Below, piece by piece: positions 19,934 to 54,731 of a stretch of 64,000 nt of DNA (position 1 is the stretch's first letter; each line of letters opens with the position of its first letter). The DNA is from a bacterium (GTDB taxonomy: Bacteria; Patescibacteriota; UBA1384; VFKW01). The translations under genes and the position numbers were made by a program. The notes under the pieces are model-generated. The model searched no databases and had not been told where the DNA came from. It was given only the letters and a program-made list of their open reading frames with translations. The stretch lies in the NCBI GenBank assembly GCA_030647355.1, contig JAUSIS010000006.1, positions 253,465 through 317,464 on the forward strand, given 5' to 3'.

Positions 19934-22900
19934 CTATTTAATAACTAAACTCATTACTTTTTCCGGACGGTATATCACTTTAACAATTTCCCTACCCTTA
20001 ATCCAATTGGCAATTACCGAATTCTTCCTAACAATATCCAGAACCTCTTCTTGGGTTGCCTTACTTCCAACCTCAACGACTCCTCTTAACTTCCCATTTA
20101 CCTGAACTGCAATTTTTACATAATCCAAAATCAAATATTTCGCATCAGCTTTGGGCCAAGTCTGATCTAATATACTCTCGGATCCACCTATCTTCTCCCA
20201 CAGCTCCTCAGCCAAATGAGGCGCAGCAGGGGACAGTAACTTCAAAAAAATACCAAACGAATCCTTAGATACTGTCTCTAAACTATCAATTTCATTATTA
20301 ATTTCCATAAGTTTTGCCACGTAAGTGTTTAAACGAAAATTTTCCAAATCATCTGTAACACTAACTATATATTTATTCAAATCAACTAAGAGATCCTTAG
20401 GGTCATCAATTCCTTCCTTAACCTTTCCAACATTCTTCCAAACGCGATTAAGAAAGCGAAAAACTCCCTGTAGACCGGCAACACTCCATGCAGATTCTTG
20501 ATCATATGGACCAATAAACATGATATAAGCTCTCATTGTATCAGCCCCATATGTCGATACTATATCATCCGGAATAATTACATTCCCCCGCGACTTACTC
20601 ATCTTCTGACCATCAGGTCCAAGAATTATTCCGTGAGCAATTCTTTTTTGATACGGCTCCGAAGTAGGAACTTCTTTCAAATCATATAAAAATTTATGCC
20701 AAAATCGTGAATAAAGTAGGTGAAGCGTTGTATGCTCCATGCCACCATTATATAAATCCACCGGTAACCAATATTCTAACTCTTTCTTGAATTCATCAAA
20801 TACGTTAACCGTTCCATTTTTTTGCTTTTTTATTTTTTCTTTTTCCTTTCCGAGCATAATATATGCGAGGTAGTACCAAGAAGAACCAGCCCAATTCGGC
20901 ATTGTATCTGTCTCACGCCGCGCCGGCCCAGAGCATCTTGGACATTTTATGTCTACCCATTCACTAACTGCAGCAAGCGGGGATTCACCCGTATTACTGG
21001 GTTCATATTTTTTAACATCTGGCAATTCTAGAGGCAAATCAGATTCGTTCAATGGAATTATTCCGCATTTCTCACAATAAATAATTGGTATTGGCTCTCC
21101 CCAATAATGCTGTCGGGAAAAAACCCAGTCTCTTAATTTATAATTAACCGCAAAATCACCGTTACCATCCTTCTTTATTTTTTTTGTAATTGCCTCGATT
21201 GCTTCTTTGGAATATATTCCGCTAAATTCACCTGAATTAACTAACTTTCCATACCCGATATAAGCATAATTTTTCTTTGTATACCTCTCGAATCCAATCT
21301 TATTATAAGGGTGCGTAATTTTTTGCAATGCTTCATTTGCCGTCATCCACACTGCCTCATGCAACTCAAGTTCTTCCTTACTAACCTCCCGTGGAGTTTT
21401 GTCTCGTAGCTCACACAAAACCGGCTGATCGATTCGTGCTCGCCAGACTTGTTTATTTTCGGCATAGAAGTGAGATTCTATTTGCCCACCTAGCTCCTCA
21501 ACCGCTTTAACTTTATAGCCAGTCTCTTCGAAAACTTCACGCTCCACCGCTTGCATCGGCGTTTCATCCTTTTCCATTCCGCCGATAGAGGGAGCAAACC
21601 AATCAAATTTTTTCCATTTTACGATCAAATATTTGTCATCGCTTCTTCGATGCACTACCGCCGATACTGTCTTTCGGAATTCAGCTCCTTTATGTTCTTC
21701 GCCTTCAAAAGGAATAACCACTTCCTTAATCAGTAGATTATACTTCTTTGCAAACTCAAAATCTCTCTCATCGTGAGCCGGAACCGCCATGACAGCACCC
21801 GTACCATAAGTCGAAAGAACATAATCAGCCACCCACACATCTACTTCTTCGTTATTTATTGGATTGATCGCTTTTACACCCTCAAGCCTTATTCCGGTCT
21901 TTTCTTTCTGCAATTCCGTTCTCTCTAGATCCGACTTCTTCCCAGCATTTTCTATATATTTTTCTACTTCCTCAAGATTTGAGATTTGAGATTTGAGATT
22001 TGAGGTGTAATCGCTCTCAGGAGCGATTACTATATATGCGCAACCAAACAATGTATCTGCTCGTGTGGTAAACACACGGACTTTATCAACGCAAGCATCG
22101 AAAACAACCGGCTCGTGTGTCCCGCAAATATGCTCCTCATTGGCAACAAAATCCACAATTTTTGCATTTAATAAATTAGAAATTTTATCACCCTGCTCAA
22201 ACGGCACCGCATAATCATTACTCGCCCGCAGATATATAGTACTACCAGTATTCTTTTTAATCTTTTCAAAATCAAACTTCCAATCAAATGTTTTTTCAAA
22301 TGGTCGCTTATGATCCTTAAAAGTTGGTTCAATAAAACCGGCTGCCAAAATCAGCTTAGCTATCGGATGTTTCAATCTCTCCACTACTTTCATCGCAACA
22401 ACTGCCCCCAAACTATGCCCCAGAATAACCGAATTTTCATCTATCTTTATTTTATCCACAACAAAGTCTACCTGCTCATCAATCTTAGGGTTATTAGTTT
22501 CTGGAAGCTCCGGCGCTTGTACTTTATACCCTCGCCTTTCCAGTTCAGCTCGTAGCCAAGGAAAGAAATTATCTTTCGGCGATCCGGTAAACCCATGTAA
22601 AATAATAAAATTAGCATTTTGCTTCAATTCAAAATCAATATTCGTTCCCTTGGATTTGCCAATCCAATTAATTTGTTGCGTTTTGATTTTTTCTAAATAA
22701 TCAGTTTTATCCAAATCGTTAATCAACCTATCAGCATAAGCCGTAATCCGAAGCATCCATTGTTTTTGCATCTTCTTCGCTGTCGGTGATTCACATCTCT
22801 CACACCTACCAGCAATCACTTCCTCATTTGCTAAACCAATCTTACACGATGGACACCAGTTGATCGGCATCTCTGCTTGATACGCCAATCTAGGCGTCGT

Positions 22901-23461
22901 CCGGTCATCATCGGCTATTTCAACTAATTTTCCAGCTTGTCCCGAGCCGGTCGAAGGATCCACATAGCCATGTTTATAAAATTGCAAAAATATCCACTGT
23001 GTCCACTTATAATATTCTGGGTCGCTAGTATTTATCTCTCGATCCCAATCGAAAGAGTAGGCGAGTGTCTTCATTTGTTTTCTAAAAAAATCTGTATTTT
23101 CTTTTGTTACTAAAGCCGGTTTTTTACCTGTTTTAATAGCATAATTTTCTGTCGGCAACCCAAAAGCATCCCAACCAATCGGGAAAAGCACATTATAGCC
23201 CTGCATACGCTTCATACGGGTGTGCGCATCCGATGCTGTATAACCCATGCAATGACCAACATGCAGACCAGACCCGGAAGGGTAGGGGAATTCAATCAAA
23301 CTGTAGAATTTTGGTTTTTTGGCAAAATCTTCAGCGCTAGAAAGATTATTTTTCTCCCAAACTACTTGCCATTTTTTTTCTATATTCTTTGGGTCATATT
23401 TATTCATATCAAAATCCCACTTAGATACTAATATTGTACCTTTAAAATAACAGTTCTTCAA
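19934..23461 (-). CDS. leuS: Leucine--tRNA ligase with two inserted accessory domains: an alpha/beta serine hydrolase and a Nudix hydrolase
   Basis: HVGH, KMSKS (QKMSKSRGN), editing-domain TTRADTLFG and the Zn-binding WCPSC...CERC are all present. An extra ~170-aa block (about 22112-22615) carries IILHGFTGSP...LGHSLGAVV (G-x-S-x-G). An extra ~140-aa block (about 21257-21694) carries the Nudix box GGMEKDETPMQAVEREVFEETGY. Total 1175 aa against the usual ~820-880 aa. Confidence 0.9.
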   Translation of the reverse strand: MKNCYFKGTILVSKWDFDMNKYDPKNIEKKWQVVWEKNNLSSAEDFAKKPKFYSLIEFPYPSGSGLHVGHCMGYTASDAHTRMKRMQGYNVLFPIGWDAFGLPTENYAIKTGKKPALVTKENTDFFRKQMKTLAYSFDWDREINTSDPEYYKWTQWIFLQFYKHGYVDPSTGSGQAGKLVEIADDDRTTPRLAYQAEMPINWCPSCKIGLANEEVIAGRCERCESPTAKKMQKQWMLRITAYADRLINDLDKTDYLEKIKTQQINWIGKSKGTNIDFELKQNANFIILHGFTGSPKDNFFPWLRAELERRGYKVQAPELPETNNPKIDEQVDFVVDKIKIDENSVILGHSLGAVVAMKVVERLKHPIAKLILAAGFIEPTFKDHKRPFEKTFDWKFDFEKIKKNTGSTIYLRASNDYAVPFEQGDKISNLLNAKIVDFVANEEHICGTHEPVVFDACVDKVRVFTTRADTLFGCAYIVIAPESDYTSNLKSQISNLEEVEKYIENAGKKSDLERTELQKEKTGIRLEGVKAINPINNEEVDVWVADYVLSTYGTGAVMAVPAHDERDFEFAKKYNLLIKEVVIPFEGEEHKGAEFRKTVSAVVHRRSDDKYLIVKWKKFDWFAPSIGGMEKDETPMQAVEREVFEETGYKVKAVEELGGQIESHFYAENKQVWRARIDQPVLCELRDKTPREVSKEELELHEAVWMTANEALQKITHPYNKIGFERYTKKNYAYIGYGKLVNSGEFSGIYSKEAIEAITKKIKKDGNGDFAVNYKLRDWVFSRQHYWGEPIPIIYCEKCGIIPLNESDLPLELPDVKKYEPSNTGESPLAAVSEWVDIKCPRCSGPARRETDTMPNWAGSSWYYLAYIMLGKEKEKIKKQKNGTVNVFDEFKKELEYWLPVDLYNGGMEHTTLHLLYSRFWHKFLYDLKEVPTSEPYQKRIAHGIILGPDGQKMSKSRGNVIIPDDIVSTYGADTMRAYIMFIGPYDQESAWSVAGLQGVFRFLNRVWKNVGKVKEGIDDPKDLLVDLNKYIVSVTDDLENFRLNTYVAKLMEINNEIDSLETVSKDSFGIFLKLLSPAAPHLAEELWEKIGGSESILDQTWPKADAKYLILDYVKIAVQVNGKLRGVVEVGSKATQEEVLDIVRKNSVIANWIKGREIVKVIYRPEKVMSLVIK
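21976..22003. repeat. Heptanucleotide tandem repeat (GATTTGA)x4 inside the leuS coding sequence
   Basis: Perfect 4-copy tandem seen directly. Encodes ...NLKSQISNLEE on the minus strand. Confidence 0.8.
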
Positions 23462-23477
23462 GATATTATTTCTTAGT

Positions 23478-24023
23478 TCAAATCTTCTTTTCCAAGATAA
23501 GGGCTGTCTTCAAAATTGCTGCCGTAGTCAATGCACAGACTATCTCTCCCGTTTTTATCATTTCTAACGCCTGCTCGATCGTGACTTTCTTAGCATTATC
23601 AATTGCTTCTTCTGCCATTTTATTATCTTCTGTCAATTGAAGTTCACGCGCCAGTATCACATGCATCACACAATCAGTTGTTCCATTCATTTCTTCATAT
23701 GTACCAATCTCCTGCCATTGCCTAGCTTTTAATCCTGCCTCTTCCCAAAGCTCCCGCTTAGCTGCCTCAATAATATCCTCACCATCCGTATTACCCCCGG
23801 GCAGTTCCCAGGAATACGAACCGGTAGGATAACGGTGTTGTCCTATTAGACAGAAACGCTCTTGGTCATCCATGGCCACAATATAAACATCATGACCCAT
23901 TTCAATGACTGAATATTTACCCTCTTTCCCATCTGGTCTAATAACCCTATCTTCCCTCACACTTATCCAGGGTGTCGTATATACCATTCTAGAATCCAAT
24001 TTCTTCCAAGGATTTTTTTTCAT
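23478..24023 (-). CDS. Nudix hydrolase (standalone)
   Basis: Nudix box ELPGGNTDGEDIIEAAKRELWEEAGL. Likely start at MKKNPWKK (24023). The longer track ORF, reaching 24149, reads through repeat R1. Confidence 0.7.
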   Translation of the reverse strand: MKKNPWKKLDSRMVYTTPWISVREDRVIRPDGKEGKYSVIEMGHDVYIVAMDDQERFCLIGQHRYPTGSYSWELPGGNTDGEDIIEAAKRELWEEAGLKARQWQEIGTYEEMNGTTDCVMHVILARELQLTEDNKMAEEAIDNAKKVTIEQALEMIKTGEIVCALTTAAILKTALILEKKI

Positions 24024-24140: not shown

Positions 24141-24267
24141 TGAAGCCAAGTTAGAACCTTGACAATTTTTGTTTTGTAAGAAAAAGCGGGGGTAGTATAG
24201 GTTTTTGCCCGTGCTACTCCCGCCAGTGATGTCTGCGCTTCTAGATCGTCTATACCAGCCTGATTCG

Positions 24268-24531
24268 CTACTCAGAGTCAGGGAATACCTTTTCTCCCAA
24301 AGAGCCGTCTGGCCTCACCTTATGAACATCAGCCAGTTTGCCCGGCCCCTTGGATATCCCAACCACGGTGTCAAGTTCCTCGCTGTGGCCCTTGACAGTG
24401 GGTCCCTGAAATCCATGCTCCCCAAGCACCGAGCCGATAAGACCCGTAGCCGCATTGAGAGCATTCTGATCCATAGGGTCGCCTTTTGGACACTTCCCTT
24501 TCCGAGATAAGAAATTCAGCTTAACCATCAA
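24268..24531 (-). CDS. Hypothetical small ORF in a GC-rich (about 55%) segment. Coding status is ambiguous; a 101-aa plus-strand ORF at 24205-24510 overlaps it.
   Basis: Atypical GC content and overlapping ORFs on both strands. Possibly a gene remnant. Confidence 0.2.
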   Translation of the reverse strand: MMVKLNFLSRKGKCPKGDPMDQNALNAATGLIGSVLGEHGFQGPTVKGHSEELDTVVGISKGPGKLADVHKVRPDGSLGEKVFPDSE

Positions 24532-24702: not shown

Positions 24703-24850
24703 GGTATATACGAAAAAAGCAGGCCTAAACCTGTTATTTTCATGGTGGACCCAGACGATTTTTTTTTTGGAACCCCTTCTATGATGTGATCCTAGAGTGG
24801 GCACCTATATTAAAGCAAATATACGAAACTCAAGATAATGATACTAATTC
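24703..24850 (-). repeat. Repeat R2: second copy of the tRNA-3'-like repeat
   Basis: Shares GGTATATACGAAAAA..CAGGCCTAAACCTGTTATTTT..TGGTGGACC...ATCCTAGAGTGGGC with R3, and its core with R1. Confidence 0.55.
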
Positions 24851-24968
24851 CAGACATTCACCAAAAGAGGTCTAGGATTTTATGTACCTTAAAATATAAA
24901 AAAACTCCCTGCGATAAGTCTTGCTCGCAAGGAGGGTGTAAATGAGCTATCGCTCAGCTCTGTCCATG

Positions 24969-25727
24969 TCAAGGCGTTATGAGTACTAGGTACTCGTCGG
25001 CCTTGGGCAACCAGTGCTTATACCATTCCTCAGATTGCCCTATGGGCTTATGTGCCTCAATTACCGTGCGGGCTCCGAACCTGTCCTTTCCTGGCTCAGG
25101 CAGGACACCCGGCCCAACCACGATGCCTCCTTGTTTCCACCTGCCAATGCAGTACGCCTCGCTACCGGCAAACGACTTTTTGCCAAATAGTTTTGCGCTT
25201 AGCACCAGCTCCTTGTCCGCGACGTATAGACCAAATTCTCCACCCCGGCTTATGCACTCGACCAGCTTTGACGGGTCGCTTTTGCAGAAAACATAGATAG
25301 CAACCGCGTGGCTAGTCGGAGTGGAAGTCGCGTAAGCAAAGTTGGACTTCTCCTCTGGGTGGGCGATCCAGAGGAACTGATTGGCTCGATTCTCCAGAGC
25401 TTCCGCTCTCGCATGGAGTTTTTCATATGCGAGGTAGGCGATTGCTTGCCTGCGGGTTTCACAGTGGCAACTCTCCATGGCATACTTGATTCCGATTTCC
25501 AACCAATGCTTTGTGATAGCCGACAGGATAGCTCTAAAGTCCTCTGGAAGCTCCCTTTCCGACTCGGGGAGATCTCGCCACAAAGGTGGCTTTGGCCCAC
25601 GGATAGGTTTCCTACCTACCCAAGGCGCTATTTGGTCATCTTCTCGACGAGTAACAGGACCGGATGCGTCAAAAGCCCTTTGGAGAGTGTCGAGGTCAAT
25701 TTTGTCCAATCTCGACAATACTCTCAC
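24969..25727 (-). CDS. Hypothetical protein in a GC-rich (about 57%) foreign segment
   Basis: 252-aa ORF with uniform codon usage unlike the host. Flanked by R2 and R3. No motif recognised. Confidence 0.45.
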   Translation of the reverse strand: MRVLSRLDKIDLDTLQRAFDASGPVTRREDDQIAPWVGRKPIRGPKPPLWRDLPESERELPEDFRAILSAITKHWLEIGIKYAMESCHCETRRQAIAYLAYEKLHARAEALENRANQFLWIAHPEEKSNFAYATSTPTSHAVAIYVFCKSDPSKLVECISRGGEFGLYVADKELVLSAKLFGKKSFAGSEAYCIGRWKQGGIVVGPGVLPEPGKDRFGARTVIEAHKPIGQSEEWYKHWLPKADEYLVLITP

Positions 25728-25850
25728 CTCCCTTCATAACAGATTTTCTCAGCCAAACTACCGGGTATATTATACATAAAATATTAAGTTTTAGCAATAC
25801 TATCAAACACCAAAGGAGAGTATGTTCCAAAAGAGTTCCAAATCCGCTCG

Positions 25851-25995
25851 GGTATATACAAAAATAGACAGGCCTAAACCTGTTATTTTTGTGGTGGACC
25901 GCAACCCTGAATCATGGAACTCTTTTTTCGATGTTATCCTAGACTGGGCCCCTAAGTTAAAACAAATATATAAACAAGATAACAAACTAGACAAT
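25851..25995 (-). repeat. Repeat R3: third copy of the tRNA-3'-like repeat
   Basis: See R1 and R2. TGTGGTGGACC is identical to the 11 nt at the tRNA-Ala(GGC) 3' end. Confidence 0.55.
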
Positions 25996-26287: not shown

Positions 26288-27016
26288 ATGCCAACACAAA
26301 CGCCATCGTTCAAAAACTATCTAAAGCGCCGACAAGCAATAATTGACACCGAAACCAAGCAACAAGAAGAACCGAAAGCTCTGGCACTATTCAACGAGAA
26401 GACTTTTTACCGCTCTTTCTTGAAAGATATGATTGAAGCTGAAAAAGAAGTTATTATTTACAGCCCGTTTATAAGTAAATTCAGATCGGACTTCTTCAGA
26501 GATACATTCAAAAAACTCAGGCGGAGAAACATAGATGTCTTTATCTTTACCCGCCCGCTTGATGAACATGAATACTTTATGAGATCGGAAATTAAGAGCG
26601 CTTTAAGTGATTATGAGGAGATGGGAGCATGTATCTTCTATCTCCCCGGGTCGATTCATGAAAAAGTGGCAATAATAGATAGGGAAATACTCTGGGAAGG
26701 GAGCTTAAATATCCTTTCGCAGAGAACCAGTCGTGAACTGATGAGAAGGACATCAGACGAAGAATCGGCAAAACAAGTTATGGCCCACTTGGGGCTAAAC
26801 AAGAATCTGGTTGAAGGATATAAAGACAAATATGAGAGAATGTATAGGAGTCTGGTCGCCAACGCAAAAGACGATCGCATGAAAAAAGCCCGGCTATTTG
26901 TTACCGGCGTGCTCCTCCCAATTCTCACTTGGTGGCTATTTTTCAACTTTAAGGTTATGATAGTAGCGCTGAAAGGTGTTAAATTAATAATAAGCTTTAT
27001 AAGATCATATCATTAG
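26288..27016 (+). CDS. Phospholipase D-family (HKD) nuclease-like protein with a C-terminal TM helix
   Basis: HKD motif HEKVAIIDREILWEGSLN (H-x-K-x4-D). RBS AAGGAGG. Hydrophobic C-terminus. Confidence 0.55.
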   Translation: MPTQTPSFKNYLKRRQAIIDTETKQQEEPKALALFNEKTFYRSFLKDMIEAEKEVIIYSPFISKFRSDFFRDTFKKLRRRNIDVFIFTRPLDEHEYFMRSEIKSALSDYEEMGACIFYLPGSIHEKVAIIDREILWEGSLNILSQRTSRELMRRTSDEESAKQVMAHLGLNKNLVEGYKDKYERMYRSLVANAKDDRMKKARLFVTGVLLPILTWWLFFNFKVMIVALKGVKLIISFIRSYH

Positions 27017-30440: not shown

Positions 30441-33257
30441 ATGATAGACAAAAATACAAACATGGACAAAGGCGCACACTTCTACAAATGCGATTTTCAA
30501 GTACATACACCACGGGACACCAATTGGAATGGTGATGCCGCTGTTTCTGATATAGAGAGAAAGGCATATGCCGAGGAGCTGATACAGGCTTGTCGAACAA
30601 AAGGACTAGATGCGATTGCGATTACCGATCATCATGATTTTGCGTTCTTTCCATTTATTAAAAAGTCTGCTCAAGATGAGTTGGACGATTCGGGTAATCT
30701 CGTTACTAAAGACAGGCAGATCGTTGTGTTTCCAGGTATTGAGCTTACATTGACTGCCCCAGCTTGTCAGGTAATACTACTTTTGGATGCGAATTTTCCA
30801 GAGAACTTGCTACAAAGTGTTCTTACGGCACTCTCTATCTCTCCAGCTTCGCCTACTGATGAAAAGCACGCAAAAATTGAAAGAGTTCCACAGAACGTTA
30901 TTAGCGACCTCTCCGATCTCTACCAGAAACTTAGTAGTCACGATCATTTAAAAGGCAGGTTTATAGTAATACCGAATGTCAGTGAAACTGGTCATGGGAC
31001 AATGTTGCGAACGGGCTTTGGCAATTTTTATAAGACAATGCCTTGTGTGGGCGGATACACCGACGGCCCAGTTTCTAAATTCGGCACTGGCAACCTTTCG
31101 ATTATACAGGGGAAAAATCGAGATTATGGTTTCAAGGCAATCGGTGTTTTCCAAACATCTGATAATCGAAAACGTAATCACGATGACCTCGGTAAATATA
31201 CCACATGGATAAAATGGTCTGAACCGACCGCGGAGGCGTTGAGGCAGGCCTGCCTAGCCAAAGAGTCGAGATTATCCCAGGACGAGCCTCTTCTACCGAA
31301 TATTTGGATCATGTCCATTAGCGTTTCCGCATCGAAGTTTCTGGGTAGAATCGAACTCGATCTCAGCCAACAATACAACGCAATAATTGGCGGCCGCGGG
31401 ACTGGTAAATCTACTATACTTGAGTACTTACGATGGGGACTTTGCGACCAACCATCGGAAGATATCGATTTTGATAATGTTCAAAAAAAACGCAAAACTT
31501 TAATTGATAATACACTACAAAAATTTGATGGAGAAGTACACGTTACCTTTCTGCTCAATGGTGTGAAGCATATTGTTAAACGGAACTCAAAAAAGCAGGA
31601 AATTCTCCTGAAAATCGGGGATTCGGATTTCGCGCAAACCACAGAACAGGAGATCAGGAATTTACTCCCGATCCAAGCTTATAGTCAAAAACAACTTAGC
31701 AGTGTAGGTGTACGAATTGAGGAATTAAGACGCTTTGTTGAGCTTCCTATAAAACAAGACCTTGACCAAACGCGATCAGAGATTAGGGATACTGAATCAA
31801 AATTGAGGATTGCTTACGGGAATCTCGTTCGCAAAAGAGAAATTGAAACCGAAGTAAGTAAATACAATATAGAAGCCTCTTCTCTAGTAGAGCAGCTTAA
31901 AGGTCTGCGCGATGGTCTCAAGGGTCTTTCGAAAGACGAACAGGCAATTATCAACCGAAAAATTAAATATGACAATGAAGAGTCTATTATCGGTAATTTC
32001 CAGAATACGTTTTCCAATGCCAAAACACTTATAGAAACCTTGAAGTCTGTAATTGATGTAGACCCCCCTAAACATGATAATGATAGCGTCGAACTGGAAA
32101 ACAAAACACTTATTGATACAATTCGCGATCAATTTTCCACACGCTTTGTTGATATCAATGTAAAAGTAACCGCACTCGATAATATCTTTGACGAGGCTTC
32201 GCTTGATAGTCTTACGACTGAAATTGAAAAATGGACGAAGTTAAAAACGGAATTTGACAAAAAATACGAAGCAGTCAAGGCAACGGCAAAAGCCAATCAA
32301 CAACAACTTGCTCAAATTCAGCAATTGGAAAAAAGAATAGCCGAATTAAAGAAGCTGCAAATTGATAAACGCAACTCACTTGAAACCCTAGCTGAATCAG
32401 AAAAAATCCACAAGGAATTAAGGCAAAAATGGGATATAGCGCATACCGATAAAATTACCGCTCTCGGAAAGCAATGCATGCAGTTTACCTCCTTGTCAAA
32501 TGGGCTTATAAAAGCAGAGATTACAAATAGTCTAGATATAGGGTCCCTCATGCAAAGATTTAAAATTGCTTTTAACGGTCTAAATATCAAGGAAGAAAAA
32601 ATTGAGAAAATTTGCCAATGCCTTGTCACGGCAACTGATCCCCTGGCGAAATGGAATGACATCTTAACTGAGCTCGAGAAGCTTGCCTGGCATTCTGCAG
32701 ATGGAACAACGACCATGCCAGACACTCCGACACTTGGACAGTGTGGATTTATTGACTCTGAGCGAGCACGGATTGTGGCTGGCTTTGATTCGGAGAAGTG
32801 GATTAATTTAGCTGTGACAGAATTGGAGTTCAACCCAAAATTCTCTTACTGTACAAACCAAGACAAGAATGAGTATATAGAATTTTCTGATGCTTCAGCT
32901 GGACAACAAGCTACTGCTCTTCTGACAGTGCTTCTTAACCAAAATGGAGCACCACTCATAATTGATCAGCCAGAAGATGATGTAGACAGCAAGATGATCA
33001 CGGATATTGTTAAGCAAATTTGGCTTGCGAAAAGTAACCGTCAGCTTATATTTGCAAGTCATAATGCTAACTTCGTTGTTAACGGGGATGCGGAGCTTGT
33101 TGTTTGTTGCGACTATGTAAAAGCTGCTGATCAAACAAACGGACATATTAAGGCAGAAGGGGCTATCGACAATAAAGCCATTAAAGAGGAAATAACATTA
33201 GTCACCGAGGGCGGTCCGCAGGCGTTTAAACTCAGAAAAGATAAGTACGGGTTCTAA
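30441..33257 (+). CDS. PHP-family phosphoesterase fused to an SMC/Rad50-like ABC ATPase with a long coiled-coil insert
   Basis: PHP motifs DFQVHTPRD, AIAITDHHD, FPGIELT. Walker A IIGGRGTGKST. About 400 aa of heptad-rich coiled coil. Signature SDASAGQQA, Walker B LIIDQPEDDVD, H-loop FASHNAN. Confidence 0.7.
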   Translation: MIDKNTNMDKGAHFYKCDFQVHTPRDTNWNGDAAVSDIERKAYAEELIQACRTKGLDAIAITDHHDFAFFPFIKKSAQDELDDSGNLVTKDRQIVVFPGIELTLTAPACQVILLLDANFPENLLQSVLTALSISPASPTDEKHAKIERVPQNVISDLSDLYQKLSSHDHLKGRFIVIPNVSETGHGTMLRTGFGNFYKTMPCVGGYTDGPVSKFGTGNLSIIQGKNRDYGFKAIGVFQTSDNRKRNHDDLGKYTTWIKWSEPTAEALRQACLAKESRLSQDEPLLPNIWIMSISVSASKFLGRIELDLSQQYNAIIGGRGTGKSTILEYLRWGLCDQPSEDIDFDNVQKKRKTLIDNTLQKFDGEVHVTFLLNGVKHIVKRNSKKQEILLKIGDSDFAQTTEQEIRNLLPIQAYSQKQLSSVGVRIEELRRFVELPIKQDLDQTRSEIRDTESKLRIAYGNLVRKREIETEVSKYNIEASSLVEQLKGLRDGLKGLSKDEQAIINRKIKYDNEESIIGNFQNTFSNAKTLIETLKSVIDVDPPKHDNDSVELENKTLIDTIRDQFSTRFVDINVKVTALDNIFDEASLDSLTTEIEKWTKLKTEFDKKYEAVKATAKANQQQLAQIQQLEKRIAELKKLQIDKRNSLETLAESEKIHKELRQKWDIAHTDKITALGKQCMQFTSLSNGLIKAEITNSLDIGSLMQRFKIAFNGLNIKEEKIEKICQCLVTATDPLAKWNDILTELEKLAWHSADGTTTMPDTPTLGQCGFIDSERARIVAGFDSEKWINLAVTELEFNPKFSYCTNQDKNEYIEFSDASAGQQATALLTVLLNQNGAPLIIDQPEDDVDSKMITDIVKQIWLAKSNRQLIFASHNANFVVNGDAELVVCCDYVKAADQTNGHIKAEGAIDNKAIKEEITLVTEGGPQAFKLRKDKYGF

Positions 33258-38737: not shown

Positions 38738-41368
38738 TTACCTGTAGGAATTCAAGCCGGCAGGGGCGGATTCGTTCGCTTTCTTTGGGCCGGTTTTGGC
38801 GGAGGGTTCGGATTGTACACCCGGCATTTCTTTTTTGACCGGCTTTACATATTCGACGGCGTAATTTTTTCTCGATGACTCAATTAAACTTTTCACTTTT
38901 GCCGGATTCTTTGGCGTTGTAATCGGTATTGTTTCTCCGGACAGGGGTTCCTGCGGTTCGACTGCTGCCATTTTCATATAGAATCGGTAGCGGGGCAGAT
39001 TGCCGATGTCGCCCTGTACCACCGCGGGGGCGAATTGGGACAGCATCAGATCTTCGTCAACCGGACTGGCCGTTCTAAAGCAAATGACCGTACCGGTATT
39101 GGCCAAAACAACATTGGTAACATTTTTGTTATCCTGCTGGGCTGTCGATTGTTCGGCAACGGTAATTCGGAGGCCGAACTTTCGTCCGCCGGATAAAAAC
39201 TTGGTGAACGATTTATTGGCAAAGTTTTGGAATTCATCGACGAATAGATAAAACGGCTGGCGCTTGGCGGTTTCCATTCTTGCTCTTCTGACGGCGGCTT
39301 GTTGGATTTTAGCCAGAACGGTCGCCCCCAGAAGCTGGGAAGTGTCTTCGCCCAGTTTGCCTTCCGCCAGATTGCAGATAAGGATTTTTCGGCTGTCCAA
39401 TATATCGTCAAAACTGATAGTGGATTTAGATTGCTCCAGTATCCGTCTGGCGGTAGCGGAGAAAAGAAATCGTCCTACCTTAGCGGTAATTCCGCCGATC
39501 ATTTTAACGTGCTGGTAATCGCCGGCTTTGCCGAACTCGTTTTTCCAGAAATTAATCAAATCCTCGTTTTTCAGATCCCTTATTGCCTGCCTTCGAACAT
39601 TTTGGTCGTTTAATAGATGATAGACGGTAAAGATCGTTCGATCGGGAACAACAAAAGCGGTGTGTATCGTGTTTCTAAGTATATACTCTATTCTATGAGC
39701 GTTCGCGTCTTCGTCCTTGAAAAAGACTCTTCTAAATATTGAGATGACGCTTTCACAGACCAGCTCTTTTTCCAACTCAAGATCGTCTTCTTCCAAGCTT
39801 TCGTCCAGTTCCAAAAGATTTATTCCGACAGGGAATTTAATATCGCGGGGGTTAAAATATATGAGATCATTTGTCCGCTCTTTCGGTACCGTATCAAGCA
39901 ATCCTTCCGCCAAGTCCCCATGCGGATCAATGACTGCCAGACCCCGCCCCTTTTTAATATCGTCGGATGCCATATGATAAATGATGGTTGATTTACCAGA
40001 ACCGGTTTGTCCGATTAGGTACAAATGGCGGGATCTGTCTTCATCAGTTAAGCCGATATCGGTTACAACATTTCCGTAAGTGCTTTTACCGAACACCACA
40101 TCAAGGTCTTGGTTATTCTTTAATACCAGCGGCGCAGGCAAATCTCGGCTCTTTACTCTTACAAGGTCTTCCGTATGGGTGTTGGCGGTATATGGGAAGT
40201 GATACAAAGCGCTGACTTCCGAAGTCGCCAGCACCAAAGGCGATCCGCTTAAACGCAGACGGAACATCAGCCACTTGAGCCGTTCAACTATTTTTACAGG
40301 ATTTCTCCATTTGGGAATAAGCGATTGCCCCGAAGAGTGCAGAAAGCTGGCAAATGATGAGCGCAAACCTCTTTCCCGCTCCAATATTTGATCCTCTGCC
40401 ATTACAAGGAGTGCCCGAACCGTTCCAGCAAATAGCGGTTGGTGTAGTTTGGATTTCATAAGATCGCCCATCTCTATATCCAATGTCGTAGCAGTTCTTT
40501 CAATACTTCCGCTATGAGGCAGAACATCGGCTTTCTGCCCGCTTGCAAATTCGGCCAGAAATAGAAGAGGCATCATAACAATTCGTACGGCCGATTCTAT
40601 CAGTCCGGCAATCAAGCGAAGCGTACTTTGCAGTTTAGTGTCGTTAATTCCTAAGGAGAATTTGTTTTGAGCGATAAGAGATTTAATTCTTGAGATTTCC
40701 TGCCTTTTGCCCATTTGGCGAAAGCCGTTTAGCGGCCTTAAAATTACCTGCAAAGCCATAAGCTCGCCTTTTTTTAACTGCGTCATGTTTCCGGTTAAGT
40801 AAGCCAGCGGGTCGTGCTTTTCCAGATGGGATTGCTCGTTTAGAGGCAGAGCAAAATGTTTGGCATGCTTGAATTCCAATATCCTCAAAACATTCGGCTT
40901 TGCGGGCAGGTAGTCGGCGATCTCTTTGACTTTAATACTCGGTATATATGAACGGAGATTCTTTTCGGCTACTTTGGCGATGTTTTCAGGGATACGCAGT
41001 ATATACCTAATCCCTGTTTCTTTAGCGGAAACTATTTCCAGAGAGCAAAACGGCTGTCTGAACAGCAACCTATCTAGCCAAGTGCGCTGGCTAATAAGAT
41101 TAGCGATTAAAGAGAACAATTGTGTTGTCGAAGCCGATGAGATTTCGGTCGTATGGGGAGGAGTGATTTCCAAAAAGACGAATTTGTCCTTTATGTCCCG
41201 ATAGGTTCGAACGATAGATAAAATAAGCGAAACAAAAAGCCAGAGGATTAAAAGAAAAAAGATATATACTGCTACGAGCTTAAGGTTGGAGTATGAAAAA
41301 GTGTGAACAAAAAAATTAGTAAGCGTATCTAAATCGATGGAGGATAATTTATTAGTTGCAGATTGCAT
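38738..41368 (-). CDS. Conjugative coupling-protein-like P-loop ATPase (TraD/VirD4/TraG superfamily) with N-terminal TM helices
   Basis: Two N-terminal TM segments. Walker A LIGQTGSGKST. Walker B FYLFVDEFQNF. Confidence 0.55.
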   Translation of the reverse strand: MQSATNKLSSIDLDTLTNFFVHTFSYSNLKLVAVYIFFLLILWLFVSLILSIVRTYRDIKDKFVFLEITPPHTTEISSASTTQLFSLIANLISQRTWLDRLLFRQPFCSLEIVSAKETGIRYILRIPENIAKVAEKNLRSYIPSIKVKEIADYLPAKPNVLRILEFKHAKHFALPLNEQSHLEKHDPLAYLTGNMTQLKKGELMALQVILRPLNGFRQMGKRQEISRIKSLIAQNKFSLGINDTKLQSTLRLIAGLIESAVRIVMMPLLFLAEFASGQKADVLPHSGSIERTATTLDIEMGDLMKSKLHQPLFAGTVRALLVMAEDQILERERGLRSSFASFLHSSGQSLIPKWRNPVKIVERLKWLMFRLRLSGSPLVLATSEVSALYHFPYTANTHTEDLVRVKSRDLPAPLVLKNNQDLDVVFGKSTYGNVVTDIGLTDEDRSRHLYLIGQTGSGKSTIIYHMASDDIKKGRGLAVIDPHGDLAEGLLDTVPKERTNDLIYFNPRDIKFPVGINLLELDESLEEDDLELEKELVCESVISIFRRVFFKDEDANAHRIEYILRNTIHTAFVVPDRTIFTVYHLLNDQNVRRQAIRDLKNEDLINFWKNEFGKAGDYQHVKMIGGITAKVGRFLFSATARRILEQSKSTISFDDILDSRKILICNLAEGKLGEDTSQLLGATVLAKIQQAAVRRARMETAKRQPFYLFVDEFQNFANKSFTKFLSGGRKFGLRITVAEQSTAQQDNKNVTNVVLANTGTVICFRTASPVDEDLMLSQFAPAVVQGDIGNLPRYRFYMKMAAVEPQEPLSGETIPITTPKNPAKVKSLIESSRKNYAVEYVKPVKKEMPGVQSEPSAKTGPKKANESAPAGLNSYR

Positions 41369-44452: not shown

Positions 44453-45044
44453 GGGTTCGGCCAGAAGCCAGATCGGCATTAAAGAAGTTAGAGATGATGT
44501 TTTAGTTCTATCCGACAATAGCTATCGTACGATTTTAACCACCTCTTCTTTGAATTTCGAACTGCAAAGCGAAGAAGAGCAGGACGCTTTAATAGATATT
44601 TTTCAATCGTTTCTTAACTCGCTCACTATTCCGATTCAAATTTTGATTCGCGTTCGAGAGCTGGACATCGAGCGCTACTTGGAAAATATCCAAACTTCGC
44701 GAGAAGACGAAGACCAGGAAGTATATAAAAAACAACTTGAGCATTACTGCACCTTTATCAGAAAGCTCATCTCGGGCAACAAGATATTATCCCGCCGCTT
44801 CTATTTGGTTATCCCTTATGACAGCAAAAGCTCGAAAAGCGATTTCTCGCTGGCCAAAGAACAGCTGATGCTCGAGCAGGAAATAATCATCAAGGGATTG
44901 GAAAAGATGGGCATGACGGCAAGACAATTAACCGGATTGGAGATACTCGACTTATTTTACAACTTCTATAATCTTGAACAGGCCAAAATTCAACCGCTTG
45001 TTCAAGCTATCGTGAGGCAAACGCATGAACAAAGTTTTATCTAA
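44424..45044 (+). CDS. VirB4/TrbE-family ATPase, N-terminal domain (separate ORF)
   Basis: RBS AAAGGAGG before ATG 44424. EVRDDVLVLSDNSYRTILTTSSLNFELQSEEEQDALIDIFQSFLNSLTIPIQILIR matches the CagE/TrbE/VirB4 N-terminal region. It is in a different frame from the downstream ATPase ORF. Confidence 0.55.
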   Translation: MFRLPRKKTKGSARSQIGIKEVRDDVLVLSDNSYRTILTTSSLNFELQSEEEQDALIDIFQSFLNSLTIPIQILIRVRELDIERYLENIQTSREDEDQEVYKKQLEHYCTFIRKLISGNKILSRRFYLVIPYDSKSSKSDFSLAKEQLMLEQEIIIKGLEKMGMTARQLTGLEILDLFYNFYNLEQAKIQPLVQAIVRQTHEQSFI

Positions 45045-46812
45045 AATTAAGCGAAATATCATCCGGCAAAAAGCAAAGCGCAAGGAGAAGCGGCAAGTTT
45101 TAAGTTTCCATGTCGGGCAGCAAGACCAGCTGGATTTTGTAACTTATTCGGGGCTGGAAGAAACCCCGAATTATCTTGTGATTGACGGACGTTACATTAG
45201 AACGCTTTTCATTTCCGGCTATCCCTACACCGCCTCCAGCGGCTGGCTTAACCACCTCATAAATTTTAATCACAATGTCGATATTTCATATCATATAGAG
45301 CCGGTTGAGGCGACTTATGCTTTGCCTAAATTGAATAGAAAAATCACCGAGCTTATGTCCACAAAAAGAGCGATGGAGCGGGACGGAAAGATTATCGGAG
45401 CGGAACTCTTAGATCCTCTGGAATCGGCGACCGAACTGCGGGATAAAATCCAGCGAGGACAGGAGAACCTATTCCAAGTTTCACTATATATTACCCTATC
45501 GGCAAAAAGCTTGGCCGAGCTCGATAGAGTAACCAAACTTTTGGAAACGGTATTGGCAACGAGGTTATTTTACACCAAATCGGCAATGTATCAGCAGTTG
45601 GAGGGTTTGCAGTCGGTACTACCCAGAGGAGATAACCAATTAGGGCAAAAGAGAAACCTTGACAGCTCATCGGCCGCTATGACTTTCCCTTTTATCTCCT
45701 CCGAATTCGTGCAGGAATCAGGCGTACTATACGGCATAAACCGCTCCAACAATTCCCTTGTTATTGTCGATAGGTTTTCACTGCCTAACGCCAATAGTAT
45801 CTTATTCGCTCAATCGGGAGCCGGAAAAAGCTATACAGCTAAAGTAGAAATTTTACGCCATTTAATGCAGGGGACGAAAGTCATCGTTATCGACCCCGAA
45901 CGGGAATACAGACGATTAGCCGATTCGGTCAAGGGGACATATATTAAACTATCGGTTCATTCCAAAGAGAAAATTAATCCCTTTGATTTATCCGTTAACG
46001 CTTTCAGTGAAACGGACGGGTTTGCCGACCATGTGCAATCGCTTACCGAAATCATCTCCCTTATGGCAGAAGGTTTATCGCCGGAAGAAAAATCGGTAGT
46101 CGACCAGGCAATTCTTAAAACCTACAAAAAATTCGGTTTATCGGTAAAAAAGCCGAGAAAAAGAGAACGCGATACTTATCCTTTGCTTTACGACTTTTAC
46201 ATAACGCTCAAAACTTTGAAGCAGACCAAGCTTTGCCAGCGCCTTGAGAAATATACCACCGGCTCTCTGGCCGAAGTATTTAATTCCCAAACAAACCTCT
46301 ACTTGGAAAATCGGCTGGTTGTTTTCGATACCAAAGACCTGCCTGAATCCTTGCGTCAGATTATGCATTTGGTTATCGCTCAATTCGTGCAAAACCAAGT
46401 CAAAAGCCATACCCAGAAACGATTGCTTGTAATAGACGAAGCATGGCTCTTGTTGGAGCATGAGGAAAGCGCAAGATTTGTGGCCGGATTAGTCAGACGT
46501 GCCAGAAAGTATTATCTTGGAGTAAGCATCATCTCTCAGCAGGCAAATGACTTTCTGCAAAACGCTTACGGTCGGGCTATCGCCTCTCAAAGCGCCTTAA
46601 GAATCCTTATGAGACAGGACACGACTACTATTAGGGGCGTAGCTCAAGAATTTAGGTTAAGCGAATATGAGCAGAAGTTTTTGCTAACTTGCGAACGAGG
46701 GGAAGCTCTGATTATCGCCGACCAGCACCATGTGGCCGTTAAAATAACCGCTTCCGAGAATGAACATCCTCTCATAACTACCGATCCGGCGGAAATCTTA
46801 AGAGGGAAATAA
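45025..46812 (+). CDS. VirB4/TrbE-family conjugative ATPase, C-terminal ATPase portion
   Basis: Walker A FAQSGAGKSYT. Walker B LLVIDEAWLLLE. Confidence 0.75.
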   Translation: MNKVLSKIKRNIIRQKAKRKEKRQVLSFHVGQQDQLDFVTYSGLEETPNYLVIDGRYIRTLFISGYPYTASSGWLNHLINFNHNVDISYHIEPVEATYALPKLNRKITELMSTKRAMERDGKIIGAELLDPLESATELRDKIQRGQENLFQVSLYITLSAKSLAELDRVTKLLETVLATRLFYTKSAMYQQLEGLQSVLPRGDNQLGQKRNLDSSSAAMTFPFISSEFVQESGVLYGINRSNNSLVIVDRFSLPNANSILFAQSGAGKSYTAKVEILRHLMQGTKVIVIDPEREYRRLADSVKGTYIKLSVHSKEKINPFDLSVNAFSETDGFADHVQSLTEIISLMAEGLSPEEKSVVDQAILKTYKKFGLSVKKPRKRERDTYPLLYDFYITLKTLKQTKLCQRLEKYTTGSLAEVFNSQTNLYLENRLVVFDTKDLPESLRQIMHLVIAQFVQNQVKSHTQKRLLVIDEAWLLLEHEESARFVAGLVRRARKYYLGVSIISQQANDFLQNAYGRAIASQSALRILMRQDTTTIRGVAQEFRLSEYEQKFLLTCERGEALIIADQHHVAVKITASENEHPLITTDPAEILRGK

Positions 46813-49291: not shown

Positions 49292-49302
49292 GCTATAGGC
49301 CC
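49227..49302 (-). tRNA. tRNA-Ala(GGC)
   Basis: Cloverleaf parsed by eye: acceptor GGGCCTA/TAGGTCC with G3:U70, D-arm GCTTAGTTGGTAGAGC, anticodon loop ATGGCAT, T-arm AGGAGTTCGAGTCTCCT, CCA encoded. Confidence 0.85.
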
Positions 49303-49353: not shown

Positions 49354-50451
49354 CTACTTACTATTCAAAAAGTTCTCTACCATAACCCTCATTTGCGTCT
49401 CTTCATCCGGTTCGACAACCAGTACCTCAAAATCCTTTATAAAAGATAGATTATTTAAAATTAAATTTCTTATTTCAGCAGACTTAGACCCGATCGCCCC
49501 AGTGAAGATTAACGTATCAATACCGCCTAAGATTGCCGCATATGCGCCAATGTACTTAACAACTCGGTCTGTAAATAATTCAATAGACAAACGTGCATTA
49601 TCAATATAATTCTCCTTTTTCGGCATATTGCTTGCCGGTATATACTTTTCATCATCAACCTTAAATCCTCCAATATATAAAACATCACGCATATCTTCAC
49701 TTAAATTGCTCACACCCTTCACTCCCGATTCATTCTGAAGGATTTTCTCAACTTCTGAAATATCCGCTCCATTTTTTAACATATAAAAAATCAAACCTCC
49801 GTCAATATCTCCGGTATCAGTCATACCCATTAAACCCACCATCGGAGAAAAACCTCCGGAGTGATCAACGCAGCGCCCTTCCAATACCGCCGCAATCGAA
49901 CAAGTTGTACCCAAGTGAACACTTATAGTCCTCTGGGTTCTAATTAATCCAAGATCTAACTGGGCCTTTTCTATTGAATGCTCATGGCTAATTCCATGCC
50001 GACCAAGTTTTTTAAAATCATATTTACTAACGACCTCTTCAGATAATGGGTAAATTTTGGCAACTCTGTTCAAATCTCCAAAAAAACAATCATCAAACAC
50101 TGCAAAATGTGTCGCACGAGGGAAAATAGGTATAACCGTTTCCATCACATCAAAACTAGCAAAATCAAAAAATGGAATTTTCTTTCCATAATCTTTCAAT
50201 TCATCAATGATCTTTTTGTCCAGTTTGGTAACTTTCGAAAATTTACCGACACTAAAAGGTAACTTGTAAGCAATAGAATGTACTTCCGATGCATCAACCG
50301 ACAAACCTTGGTATAACTTTTCCCAAGCATGAATATGATTCAAAACACTACCATAGCCAATCCGATCTACTGCTCCTCCCTTGACCATCTTTTCGCCATT
50401 AAATAGTTTACATTTTACTGATGTTTTACCAACATTAATCGTTAGAATCAT
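49354..50451 (-). CDS. ackA: Acetate/propionate kinase family protein
   Basis: MILTINVGKTSVKCKLF N-terminal ATP site and ...HLGTTCSIAAVLEGRCVDHSGGFSPMVGLMGMTDTGDIDGG. Confidence 0.7.
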   Translation of the reverse strand: MILTINVGKTSVKCKLFNGEKMVKGGAVDRIGYGSVLNHIHAWEKLYQGLSVDASEVHSIAYKLPFSVGKFSKVTKLDKKIIDELKDYGKKIPFFDFASFDVMETVIPIFPRATHFAVFDDCFFGDLNRVAKIYPLSEEVVSKYDFKKLGRHGISHEHSIEKAQLDLGLIRTQRTISVHLGTTCSIAAVLEGRCVDHSGGFSPMVGLMGMTDTGDIDGGLIFYMLKNGADISEVEKILQNESGVKGVSNLSEDMRDVLYIGGFKVDDEKYIPASNMPKKENYIDNARLSIELFTDRVVKYIGAYAAILGGIDTLIFTGAIGSKSAEIRNLILNNLSFIKDFEVLVVEPDEETQMRVMVENFLNSK

Positions 50452-54662: not shown

Positions 54663-54731
54663 TACCTTAGCCCGATGCAAGGTATTTTTGTTATAAAGTT
54701 ATTAGTTAATAAGTTACTTGAAAGGAGTAAT

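What the first reader, a model, noticed from the sequence alone, without database searches (positions are those of the whole stretch)
19934..23461. Leucyl-tRNA synthetase carrying two inserted hydrolase domains (alpha/beta serine hydrolase and Nudix)
All canonical LeuS elements are present and colinear: HVGH, Zn-binding WCPSC..CERC, editing TTRADTLFG and KMSKS. Two foreign domains sit in surface loops. A ~170-aa alpha/beta hydrolase (IILHGFTGSP...GHSLGA, RBBP9/YdeN-like) lies just before the editing domain, at about nt 22112-22615. A ~140-aa Nudix domain with an intact Nudix box GGMEKDETPMQAVEREVFEETGY lies inside the C-terminal part of the editing domain, at about nt 21257-21694. The gene is 1175 aa against about 850 aa normally. 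Synthetases make Ap4A and aminoacyl-adenylates, and Nudix enzymes hydrolyse exactly such dinucleoside polyphosphates; a fused Nudix/esterase could be a proofreading or signalling add-on. A standalone Nudix gene (23478-24023) is co-transcribed just upstream.
Basis: seen in the sequence. Interest (0 to 1): 0.75.

Follow-up and report, generated by a model that had tools for sequence, protein, structure and literature searches.

The report
LeuRS with inserted Nudix and esterase
This Patescibacteria gene is a complete leucyl-tRNA synthetase with two apparently active small enzymes (a YdeN/RBBP9-type serine hydrolase and a Nudix pyrophosphatase) spliced into loops of its proofreading domain, and the same enzyme families also sit next to LeuRS genes as separate genes in other tiny-genome microbes, pointing to an undescribed functional partnership.

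Summary
The ORF at 19934-23461(-), probably starting at ATG 23407 (1157 aa), is a bacterial-type LeuRS (TIGR00396, 902 bits) with HIGH, KMSKS and the editing motifs intact. A YdeN/RBBP9-family serine hydrolase (aa 280-459) and a Nudix domain (aa 583-732) are inserted in two loops of the CP1 editing domain. Both score above Pfam thresholds, fold confidently and keep their catalytic motifs. It is not a chimera or an intein: among the 120 sequences analysed, 95 carry the Nudix at this site and 22 carry the hydrolase, and at least 32 species-representative genomes carry the Nudix insert. Relatives carry further inserts (extra Nudix copies, Ham1/ITPase, HAD) at four or more other sites. The key new evidence is that free-standing homologs of both inserts (47-62% identical) lie directly beside leuS in 5 of 8 loci examined. 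One is a Pacearchaeota operon: hydrolase, hydrolase, YbaK-type deacylase, Ham1, archaeal LeuRS. One more lies beside an IleRS. This argues for a specific link between these hydrolases and class Ia synthetases. The substrates are unknown. I found no description in the literature. The upstream standalone Nudix belongs to a different subfamily, and its adjacency is not conserved.

The parts
19934..23407 (-). leuS gene. Probable ATG start at 23407, stop codon at 19934-19936. The maximal ORF extends to a TTG at 23461.
   Evidence: (TIGR00396, 902 bits).
22625..23407 (-). LeuRS N-terminal catalytic part (aa 19-279). It contains HIGH motif HVGH 67-70 (23252-23263), Zn-binding WCPSC/CERC 202-223, and the first strand of CP1. 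It aligns to T. thermophilus LeuRS residues 1-236.
22934..22957 (-). Eight extra residues, PSTGSGQA (aa 169-176), within a clade-specific 18-26 aa loop. The stretch is locally GC-rich and disordered in the model.
22085..22624 (-). Inserted YdeN/RBBP9-family alpha/beta serine hydrolase (aa 280-459), located between T. thermophilus positions 236 and 242. Nucleophile GHSLG 348-352 (22406-22420), acid in SNDYAVP 414-420, His in EEHICG 442-447.
21716..22084 (-). CP1 editing domain, central part (aa 460-582), with the T-rich motif TTRADT 465-470 and the conserved AHDERD 562-567.
21266..21715 (-). Inserted Nudix domain (aa 583-732), located between T. thermophilus positions 362 and 376. Nudix box 627-649 (21515-21583). 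It is a member of a subfamily that recurs with LeuRS.
   Evidence: (pLDDT 95.3).
19934..21265 (-). Remainder of LeuRS (aa 733-1175): end of CP1, second half of the Rossmann fold with CEKCG/CPRC Zn motifs and KMSKS 953-957 (20591-20605), the anticodon-binding domain and the C-terminal domain. The leucine-specific domain (T. thermophilus 580-636) is absent.
23478..24023 (-). Neighbouring standalone Nudix gene (181 aa, NudE/ADP-ribose-pyrophosphatase-like). It is a neighbour, not part of the LeuRS-associated subfamily.
   Evidence: Adjacency is not conserved.

Best explanation
The gene encodes the organism's housekeeping, editing-proficient bacterial-type LeuRS. Two complete, autonomously folding small enzymes have been captured into surface loops of its CP1 editing domain. 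One is a YdeN/RBBP9-family Ser-Asp/Glu-His hydrolase. The other is a minimal Nudix pyrophosphohydrolase. SHOWN: the architecture; the insertion points; confident folds; conservation of the catalytic motifs across relatives whose inserts are otherwise only 24-66% identical; recurrence in many independent assemblies; and the fact that free-standing homologs of both inserts are usually encoded immediately next to leuS (bacterial or archaeal type) or ileS. INFERRED: both inserts are active enzymes that work with the synthetase rather than merely riding on it. The most likely logic is on-site clean-up of synthetase side-products. The hydrolase would cleave an aminoacyl ester, thioester or amide with a free alpha-amine, for example a mis-acylated tRNA 3' end, a released aminoacyl ester or homocysteine thiolactone. 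This is by analogy with RBBP9 chemistry and with the YbaK-type deacylase that shares its operon in an archaeon. The Nudix (like Ham1 in relatives) would hydrolyse a nucleoside di- or polyphosphate derivative, either ApnA made from aminoacyl-adenylate or a damaged NTP. Fusion and operon linkage are two ways of keeping the enzymes stoichiometric with LeuRS in minimal genomes. The specific substrates remain guesses.
Against: No biochemical data exist. Presence of the inserts is patchy: close relatives at 70% core identity (P0039, P0047) have neither insert, so they are dispensable for LeuRS function. The variety of other inserts (Ham1, HAD, NTase-like, and a His-phosphatase in IleRS) fits a generic house-cleaning or hitchhiking theme as well as a LeuRS-specific one. 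Two free-standing Nudix members are not next to an aaRS. One of them abuts Fpg/MutM, which suggests general MutT-like nucleotide sanitation. The residues that anchor the alpha-amine in RBBP9 (S76, Y99, E108) align to L, F and K in the query (alignment), so RBBP9 specificity cannot simply be transferred. Nudix fold matches are at 15-23% identity and are not diagnostic. I had no model coordinates, so the distances between active sites are unknown.
Confidence: 0.55

Rival explanations
1. Hitchhiking, or domain parking. The inserts are active, generic house-cleaning enzymes: MutT-like NTP sanitation and a general esterase. They were fused into, or co-transcribed with, a large, loop-rich, constitutively expressed essential gene in streamlined genomes, with no mechanistic connection to leucylation or editing.
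For: Several unrelated small hydrolases occupy at least 6 different LeuS loops in relatives: Nudix, Ham1, HAD, NTase-like and abhydrolase. Presence and absence are patchy, and the insert history disagrees with the core history. One free-standing Nudix member is adjacent to Fpg/MutM, the GO system, and another is unlinked to any aaRS. The inserts evolve faster than the core.
Against: It does not explain why the same two families are found beside leuS specifically, in at least 4 different gene arrangements, in both bacterial-type and archaeal-type LeuRS contexts, and together with a YbaK-type aminoacyl-tRNA deacylase. It also does not explain why the same Nudix subfamily entered LeuS at two sites and in two divergent LeuS lineages.
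Confidence: 0.3
2. Protective module against aminoacyl-nucleotide antibiotics. The esterase and Nudix (with Ham1 and phosphatases in relatives) would degrade leucyl-adenylate mimics that target LeuRS or IleRS, tethered to or co-expressed with the target enzyme.
For: Inference only. The association is with the target enzymes LeuRS and IleRS. The enzyme classes present hydrolyse ester or amide bonds and phosphoanhydride bonds. Presence is patchy and accessory-like, and exchange between lineages is typical of resistance traits.
Against: There is no direct evidence. Known immunity enzymes for such compounds belong to other families (recalled from my own knowledge, not tested). No toxin or biosynthetic genes are nearby.
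Confidence: 0.08
3. The inserts are catalytically inert structural or regulatory modules, for example ligand sensors or interaction surfaces.
For: A few family members have degenerate Nudix boxes (7 of 95). One hydrolase clade replaces the canonical Asp context.
Against: The strict Nudix box is kept in 88/95 inserts, and the Ser and His of the triad are kept in all 22 hydrolases, despite low overall identity. Free-standing homologs of 160-200 aa exist as complete enzymes.
Confidence: 0.05
4. Artefact: an assembly chimera, a frameshift fusion of separate genes, or inteins.
For: NCBI's protein for this gene (P0001) begins at residue 279, exactly at the hydrolase boundary, so the annotation pipeline was confused.
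Against: The reading frame is continuous and the composition is even across the borders. The same architecture, with junctions in register, occurs in dozens of independent assemblies from ENA, JGI, NCBI and Logan. AF2 folds the whole chain confidently. There is no Hint or intein Pfam hit and no HN[CST] motif anywhere in the protein.
Confidence: 0.01

Closest known systems
Bacterial-type leucyl-tRNA synthetase (T. thermophilus 1H3N, E. coli 4AQ7, M. mobile 3ZIU)
   Same: The whole core is colinear with T. thermophilus LeuRS 1-877. HIGH, KMSKS, the Zn motifs, the CP1 editing fold with its T-rich and Asp motifs, the anticodon-binding domain and the C-terminal domain are all present.
   Different: It carries two extra enzyme domains, of about 180 and 150 aa, inside CP1. 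It lacks the leucine-specific domain. It has a clade-specific 18-26 aa loop at T. thermophilus position 147/148.
YdeN (B. subtilis, 1UXO) / RBBP9 (human, 2QS9) serine hydrolases, Pfam PF06821
   Different: Here the hydrolase is embedded in a synthetase loop rather than free-standing. Identity is only 20-23%. The alpha-amine-binding residues of RBBP9 are not conserved. The physiological substrate of YdeN is, to my knowledge, unknown.
Minimal single-domain Nudix enzymes: Aquifex Ap4A hydrolase 3I7U, M. tuberculosis Rv2985 / M. smegmatis MutT1, DR1025, T. thermophilus Ndx1, E. faecalis 2AZW
   Different: Identity is 15-23%. It forms its own subfamily with extra conserved positions (W616, W621, K670, R674). 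That subfamily is found mostly inside or next to LeuRS.
IleRS with an N-acetyltransferase domain (NCBIfam NF040702, ileS_w_GNAT)
   Same: It is a curated precedent for a class Ia synthetase hosting an additional enzyme domain. It appears in the hit lists.
   Different: The guest domain and the host synthetase are both different. I did not examine its insertion site.
Free-standing trans-editing factors (YbaK/ProXp, PF04073)
   Same: These are small hydrolases that work alongside a synthetase. A YbaK-like gene sits in the same archaeal operon as the free-standing hydrolase homologs and LeuRS.
   Different: The fold is unrelated. No deacylase activity has been shown for the YdeN-type domain.

Membership tests
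Bacterial-type LeuRS (TIGR00396) | Whole-protein score above the curated cutoff | tested here: met
   902.3 bits against a cutoff of 548.4, split into 4 stretches by the inserts.
Bacterial-type LeuRS (TIGR00396) | Class I signature motifs HIGH and KMSKS | tested here: met
   HVGH 67-70 and KMSKS 953-957, aligned to the T. thermophilus motifs.
Bacterial-type LeuRS (TIGR00396) | CP1 editing domain with the T-rich motif and the conserved Asp | tested here: met
Bacterial-type LeuRS (TIGR00396) | Leucylation and editing activity; sole LeuRS of the genome | not testable with these tools
   Only 64 kb of the genome is available. The housekeeping synteny LeuS-YceD-L32-NusB-RNase III is conserved.
Nudix hydrolase superfamily (PF00293) | Pfam score above the gathering threshold | tested here: met
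   46.1 bits against 21.1.
Nudix hydrolase superfamily (PF00293) | Nudix box GX5EX7REUXEEXGU | tested here: met
   G627...E633...R641 E642 V F E E T G Y649. The strict box is present in 88/95 family inserts.
Nudix hydrolase superfamily (PF00293) | Nudix alpha/beta/alpha sandwich fold | tested here: met
   Domain model pLDDT 95.3. Foldseek probability 1.00 and TM 0.72-0.82 to 3i7u and 2azw.
ApnA (diadenosine polyphosphate) hydrolase subgroup of Nudix | Substrate specificity for Ap4A-Ap6A | not testable with these tools
   Several ApnA hydrolases are among the top fold matches. MutT-like, NudJ and RppH enzymes match at similar scores. Identity is 15-23%.
Ser_hydrolase / YdeN / RBBP9 (PF06821) | Pfam score above the gathering threshold, and closest solved relatives in the family | tested here: met
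Ser_hydrolase / YdeN / RBBP9 (PF06821) | Ser-Asp-His catalytic triad | tested here: met
   S350 in GHSLG is conserved in all 22 hydrolase inserts, and the downstream His (H444) is retained in all 22, although MAFFT offsets it in the P0002-type rows. D417 aligns to D or E, or has a neighbouring D, in relatives. The geometry was not checked because no coordinates were available.
Ser_hydrolase / YdeN / RBBP9 (PF06821) | RBBP9-type alpha-amine anchor (S76, Y99, E108) | tested here: not met
   These align to L351, F and K in the query (alignment; residues as defined in PMC8866121). Specificity may therefore differ.
Intein | Hint domain, N-terminal Cys/Ser, and C-terminal HN followed by Cys, Ser or Thr | tested here: not met
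   No Hint or intein Pfam hit. No HN[CST] motif anywhere in the protein. The junction residues are K/V and I/Y.

The most novel reading that the evidence does not exclude
YdeN/RBBP9-type serine hydrolases and a dedicated Nudix subfamily (with Ham1) form a previously unrecognised quality-control or damage-control module for editing class Ia synthetases (LeuRS, IleRS). The module is fused into the editing domain in Patescibacteria and some reduced Bacillota, and is operonic with a YbaK-type deacylase in DPANN archaea. The esterase would be a new kind of aminoacyl-ester or thioester hydrolase, acting on mischarged tRNA, released aminoacyl esters or homocysteine thiolactone. The Nudix would clear adenylate-derived dinucleotides. 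This would also assign a first physiological role to the orphan YdeN/RBBP9 family.
Probability: 0.25. Interest if true: 0.85.

Novelty: new variant of a known kind. Interest (0 to 1): 0.72.

Why it matters
Synthetases with appended domains are well known, but whole foreign enzymes inserted into the editing domain of a bacterial LeuRS have not been described in the literature I could search. The finding is not a one-off. It opens onto a mosaic LeuRS family of up to 1722 aa, carrying three Nudix domains, an esterase and a HAD domain. It also reveals a cross-domain genomic association between LeuRS or IleRS and YdeN-type hydrolases, Nudix and Ham1. If the association is functional, it identifies new candidate fidelity or clean-up factors for translation in ultra-small symbiotic microbes. 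It also gives a testable hypothesis for the physiological role of the YdeN/RBBP9 family. In practical terms, it shows that annotation pipelines truncate these genes: NCBI's protein starts at residue 279.

Tried and rejected
Intein: rejected. There is no Hint domain and no HN[CST] motif.

Assembly chimera or frameshift: rejected. The frame is continuous, the composition is even across borders, and the junctions are in register in dozens of independent assemblies.

The upstream standalone Nudix as the source or paralog of the insert: rejected. Similarity is confined to the Nudix box, it scores 22 bits against the subfamily profile, and it is not conserved upstream of LeuS in P0002, P0003, P0064 or P0094.

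Seeding a genome scan with the Nudix insert alone failed because no stretch was conserved enough. I repeated it with LeuS flanks included.

The AFDB fold library was unavailable.

Promoter and terminator scans were at chance level and say nothing about co-transcription.

Rfam found nothing near the gene.

Four literature searches for LeuRS or aaRS with Nudix, CPR or fusion terms returned nothing relevant.

My neighbour-joining core tree is crude. I use it only to show that insert-bearing and insert-free enzymes interleave.

I could not measure distances between active sites because model coordinates are not exposed.
Full report
OBSERVATION. The minus-strand ORF at 19934-23461 is uninterrupted and 1175 aa long from a TTG. 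The true start is most likely the ATG at 23407 (M19, giving 1157 aa). Three things point to this: T. thermophilus LeuRS residue 1 aligns to residue 19, close relatives begin MNKYDP/MEKYNP, and residues 1-18 are disordered in the AF2 model. Pfam scores NUDIX at 46.1 bits (cutoff 21.1; aa 596-715) and Ser_hydrolase PF06821 at 41.4 bits (cutoff 22; aa 286-445). It also finds the LeuS editing domain, the tRNA-synt_1 families and the anticodon-binding domain. NCBIfam leuS_bact scores 902 bits (cutoff 548), broken into four stretches.

ANATOMY. Alignment to T. thermophilus LeuRS (1h3n) gives this correspondence:

- query 19-165 matches Tt 1-147
- query 192-279 matches Tt 148-236
- query 460-582 matches Tt 242-362
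- query 733-948 matches Tt 376-579
- query 953-1175 matches Tt 637-877

NOT AN ARTEFACT, AND NOT RARE. I analysed 120 sequences: the query plus its 119 best database homologs, excluding the truncated NCBI copy P0001. All are from metagenomes, and those that carry names are labelled Patescibacteria, Berkelbacteria and similar. Of the 120, 95 carry a Nudix at this site. Twenty (including the query) carry the hydrolase at this site. About 25 carry neither. P0004 has the hydrolase without the Nudix. A truncated scan of species-representative genomes found at least 32 more LeuS genes with the Nudix insert. Two of them, L018 and L020 (GC 0.30, labelled Bacilli and Mycoplasmatota), have a core that is 58% identical to a Shouchella LeuS and only about 45% identical to the query. 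Even so, the Nudix sits in the same loop with the junctions in register. There is no Hint or intein signal and no HN[CST] motif. Composition is even across the borders.

A MOSAIC FAMILY. Relatives carry further guests at other loops:

- Extra Nudix copies of the same subfamily near q255: one in P0088 and P0102, two in tandem in P0094. L032 shows the same.
- A Ham1/ITPase at the hydrolase site (P0067, 26 bits against a cutoff of 22.5).
- A weak nucleotidyltransferase-like domain at the hydrolase site (P0017, P0026; below the Pfam cutoff).
- Ser_hydrolase beside the second Zn motif near q800 (P0036 at 82 bits; P0067).
- A HAD phosphatase near q844 (P0094).
- An unidentified insert of about 155 aa near q873 (P0050, P0051, P0065).

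P0094 reaches 1722 aa. On a crude core tree, insert-bearing and insert-free enzymes interleave. The query's hydrolase is closest (45-49%) to those in a distant core clade, and only 31-35% identical to those of its nearer core relatives P0002 and P0009. The inserts have therefore been gained, lost or exchanged repeatedly.

KEY NEW EVIDENCE: FREE-STANDING HOMOLOGS LIVE NEXT TO leuS. The best database matches to the hydrolase insert are free-standing proteins of 180-182 aa at 47-51% identity. One is annotated as from a Pacearchaeota archaeon. A profile of the Nudix insert finds 156 representative clusters at E ≤ 1e-30. These include true free-standing proteins of 160-200 aa, and P0163 is 62% identical to the query's insert. 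The genomic contexts are:

| Protein | Type | Context |
|---|---|---|
| P0163 | Nudix | 35 nt downstream of an archaeal-type LeuRS (TIGR00395, 895 bits) |
| P0147 | Nudix | ends 2 nt before a bacterial LeuS |
| P0176 | Nudix | ends 3 nt before an insert-free bacterial LeuS |
| P0121 | hydrolase | same-strand, overlapping cluster: Ser_hydrolase, Ser_hydrolase, YbaK-type tRNA_edit, Ham1, archaeal-type LeuRS (784 bits) |
| P0123 | hydrolase | starts 3 nt after an insert-free bacterial LeuS, with Ham1 upstream |
| P0124 | hydrolase | follows an IleRS (which has its own inserted histidine-phosphatase domain) and a Nudix |
| P0225 | Nudix | next to another Nudix, no aaRS |
| P0194 | Nudix | 4 nt after Fpg/MutM, no aaRS |

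That makes five of eight loci beside leuS and one beside ileS, in at least four different gene arrangements. As a control, none of the 47 insert-free LeuS loci in the species-representative sample had such a neighbour within 4 kb. Most of those 47 are ordinary bacteria. For a single gene in a genome of roughly 1000 genes, this degree of adjacency is far beyond chance. The sample is small, though, and P0147 and P0176 share synteny and so are not independent.

MECHANISM: WHAT IS SHOWN AND WHAT IS INFERRED. Shown: this is a complete editing-type LeuRS hosting two structurally complete hydrolases with conserved catalytic motifs, and these enzyme families have a recurrent, cross-domain genomic association with LeuRS and IleRS. 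Inferred: the association is functional. I think the most likely role is on-site clean-up of synthetase by-products. The characterised relative RBBP9 forms acyl-enzyme intermediates with single hydrophobic amino acids (Leu/Ile, Phe, Tyr, Trp). It needs a free alpha-amine, and its authors note that it may cleave amide, ester or thioester bonds (PMC8866121). It is also cited as a valacyclovir-activating enzyme, that is, one that hydrolyses an amino-acid ester of a nucleoside analogue (reference 5 of PMC7730578). That is the bond chemistry of aminoacyl-tRNA, aminoacyl esters and homocysteine thiolactone. Together with the YbaK-type deacylase in the archaeal operon, it suggests an auxiliary deacylase or aminoacyl-ester hydrolase. 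The Nudix, like Ham1 in relatives, hydrolyses nucleoside polyphosphate derivatives. ApnA made from aminoacyl-adenylate is an attractive substrate, and ApnA hydrolases are among the nearest folds. Several facts weigh against over-reading this. The alpha-amine-anchoring residues of RBBP9 are not conserved. The Nudix matches are at 15-23% identity. One free-standing member pairs with Fpg, which hints at MutT-like sanitation. The inserts are dispensable in close relatives.

RIVALS. The main rival is hitchhiking of generic house-cleaning enzymes in a loop-rich, constitutively expressed essential gene (confidence 0.3). It explains the variety and patchiness of the guests. It does not explain the specificity for leuS across fusion and operon arrangements in two domains of life. 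A protective role against aminoacyl-nucleotide antibiotics is possible but has no direct support (0.08). Catalytically inert modules (0.05) and artefact (0.01) are unlikely.

COMPARISON AND NOVELTY. As a LeuRS it passes every sequence and structure test for membership. Likewise the inserts are members of PF06821 and PF00293. Extra domains on synthetases are a known theme, and NCBIfam even curates an IleRS containing a GNAT domain (NF040702, seen). However, four full-text searches found no description of LeuRS with Nudix or alpha/beta-hydrolase inserts, or of the LeuRS-linked operons. NCBI's own protein for this gene is truncated at residue 279 and is named only 'class I tRNA ligase family protein'. 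I rate it a new variant of a known kind, with above-average interest because of the cross-domain association.

CAVEATS. There is no biochemistry. There are no model coordinates, so the geometry of the active sites is unknown. Organism labels come from record titles. Whether this is the only leuS in the genome cannot be tested from 64 kb, although the conserved housekeeping synteny (YceD, L32, NusB, RNase III, PheT) argues that it is the housekeeping copy.

Noticed in passing
window 24713-25900: A 39-nt direct repeat (24713-24751 and 25862-25900, 87% identical) brackets a GC-rich ORF at 24969-25727(-). The ORF is 252 aa, has GC of about 0.55 against about 0.38 for the surroundings, and has no Pfam hit. 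It looks like a small foreign insertion just upstream of the Nudix/LeuS genes. A second GC-rich patch at 24200-24530 has no Rfam match.
   Followed up: partly
window ~26000-49300: A block of genes resembling a conjugative or integrative element: PLD-like nuclease (26288-27016), SMC/AAA (30441-33257), HerA/TrwB-like ATPase (38738-41368), TraG-type P-loop (45025-46812), and a large serine recombinase (47717-49291) abutting a tRNA gene (49230-49302, minus strand). In the relative L082, iPGM lies about 3 kb from LeuS. Here iPGM is at 50448-52016, so the element appears to have been inserted between them.
   Followed up: partly
window 54457-54633 (+): Cobalamin riboswitch (Rfam RF00174, 41.5 bits against a gathering score of 31.5), upstream of the ORF at 54675-55163.
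   Followed up: no
window 22934-22957 (-); also the N-termini of P0002 and P0047: Short GC-rich in-frame mini-insertions in LeuS. The query has PSTGSGQA (disordered in the model). P0002 and P0047 have PSSAEATDGKQ and PFDSAQGKQ, which duplicate the flanking IEKKW motif. These may be footprints of a small repeat element.
   Followed up: no
window 22625 (residue 279 boundary): The public NCBI protein for this same gene (P0001, 100% identical) starts at residue 279 (MKQNANFIILHG...) and is 897 aa. The deposited annotation therefore drops the N-terminal catalytic part at the hydrolase boundary.
   Followed up: yes
L094 2-3001 and L095 2-3094: An IleRS (TIGR00392, 627-671 bits) carrying an inserted histidine-phosphatase (dPGM/ribazole-phosphatase-like) domain at about aa 307-480, followed by Nudix and Ser_hydrolase genes. 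Guest enzymes in class Ia synthetases are therefore not limited to LeuRS.
   Followed up: partly
L083 5001-10169 (P0094): A 1722-aa LeuRS with three Nudix domains, a Ser_hydrolase and a HAD phosphatase in five separate insertions. It is the extreme of the mosaic family.
   Followed up: partly
L023 140-6330: Two long overlapping ORFs on opposite strands both hit the Nudix-insert profile. This is possibly an inverted-duplication misassembly in that MAG.
   Followed up: no
window 20591-20620 region (aa 948-953): The leucine-specific domain of bacterial LeuRS (T. thermophilus 580-636) is missing in the query and in all 119 homologs compared.
   Followed up: partly
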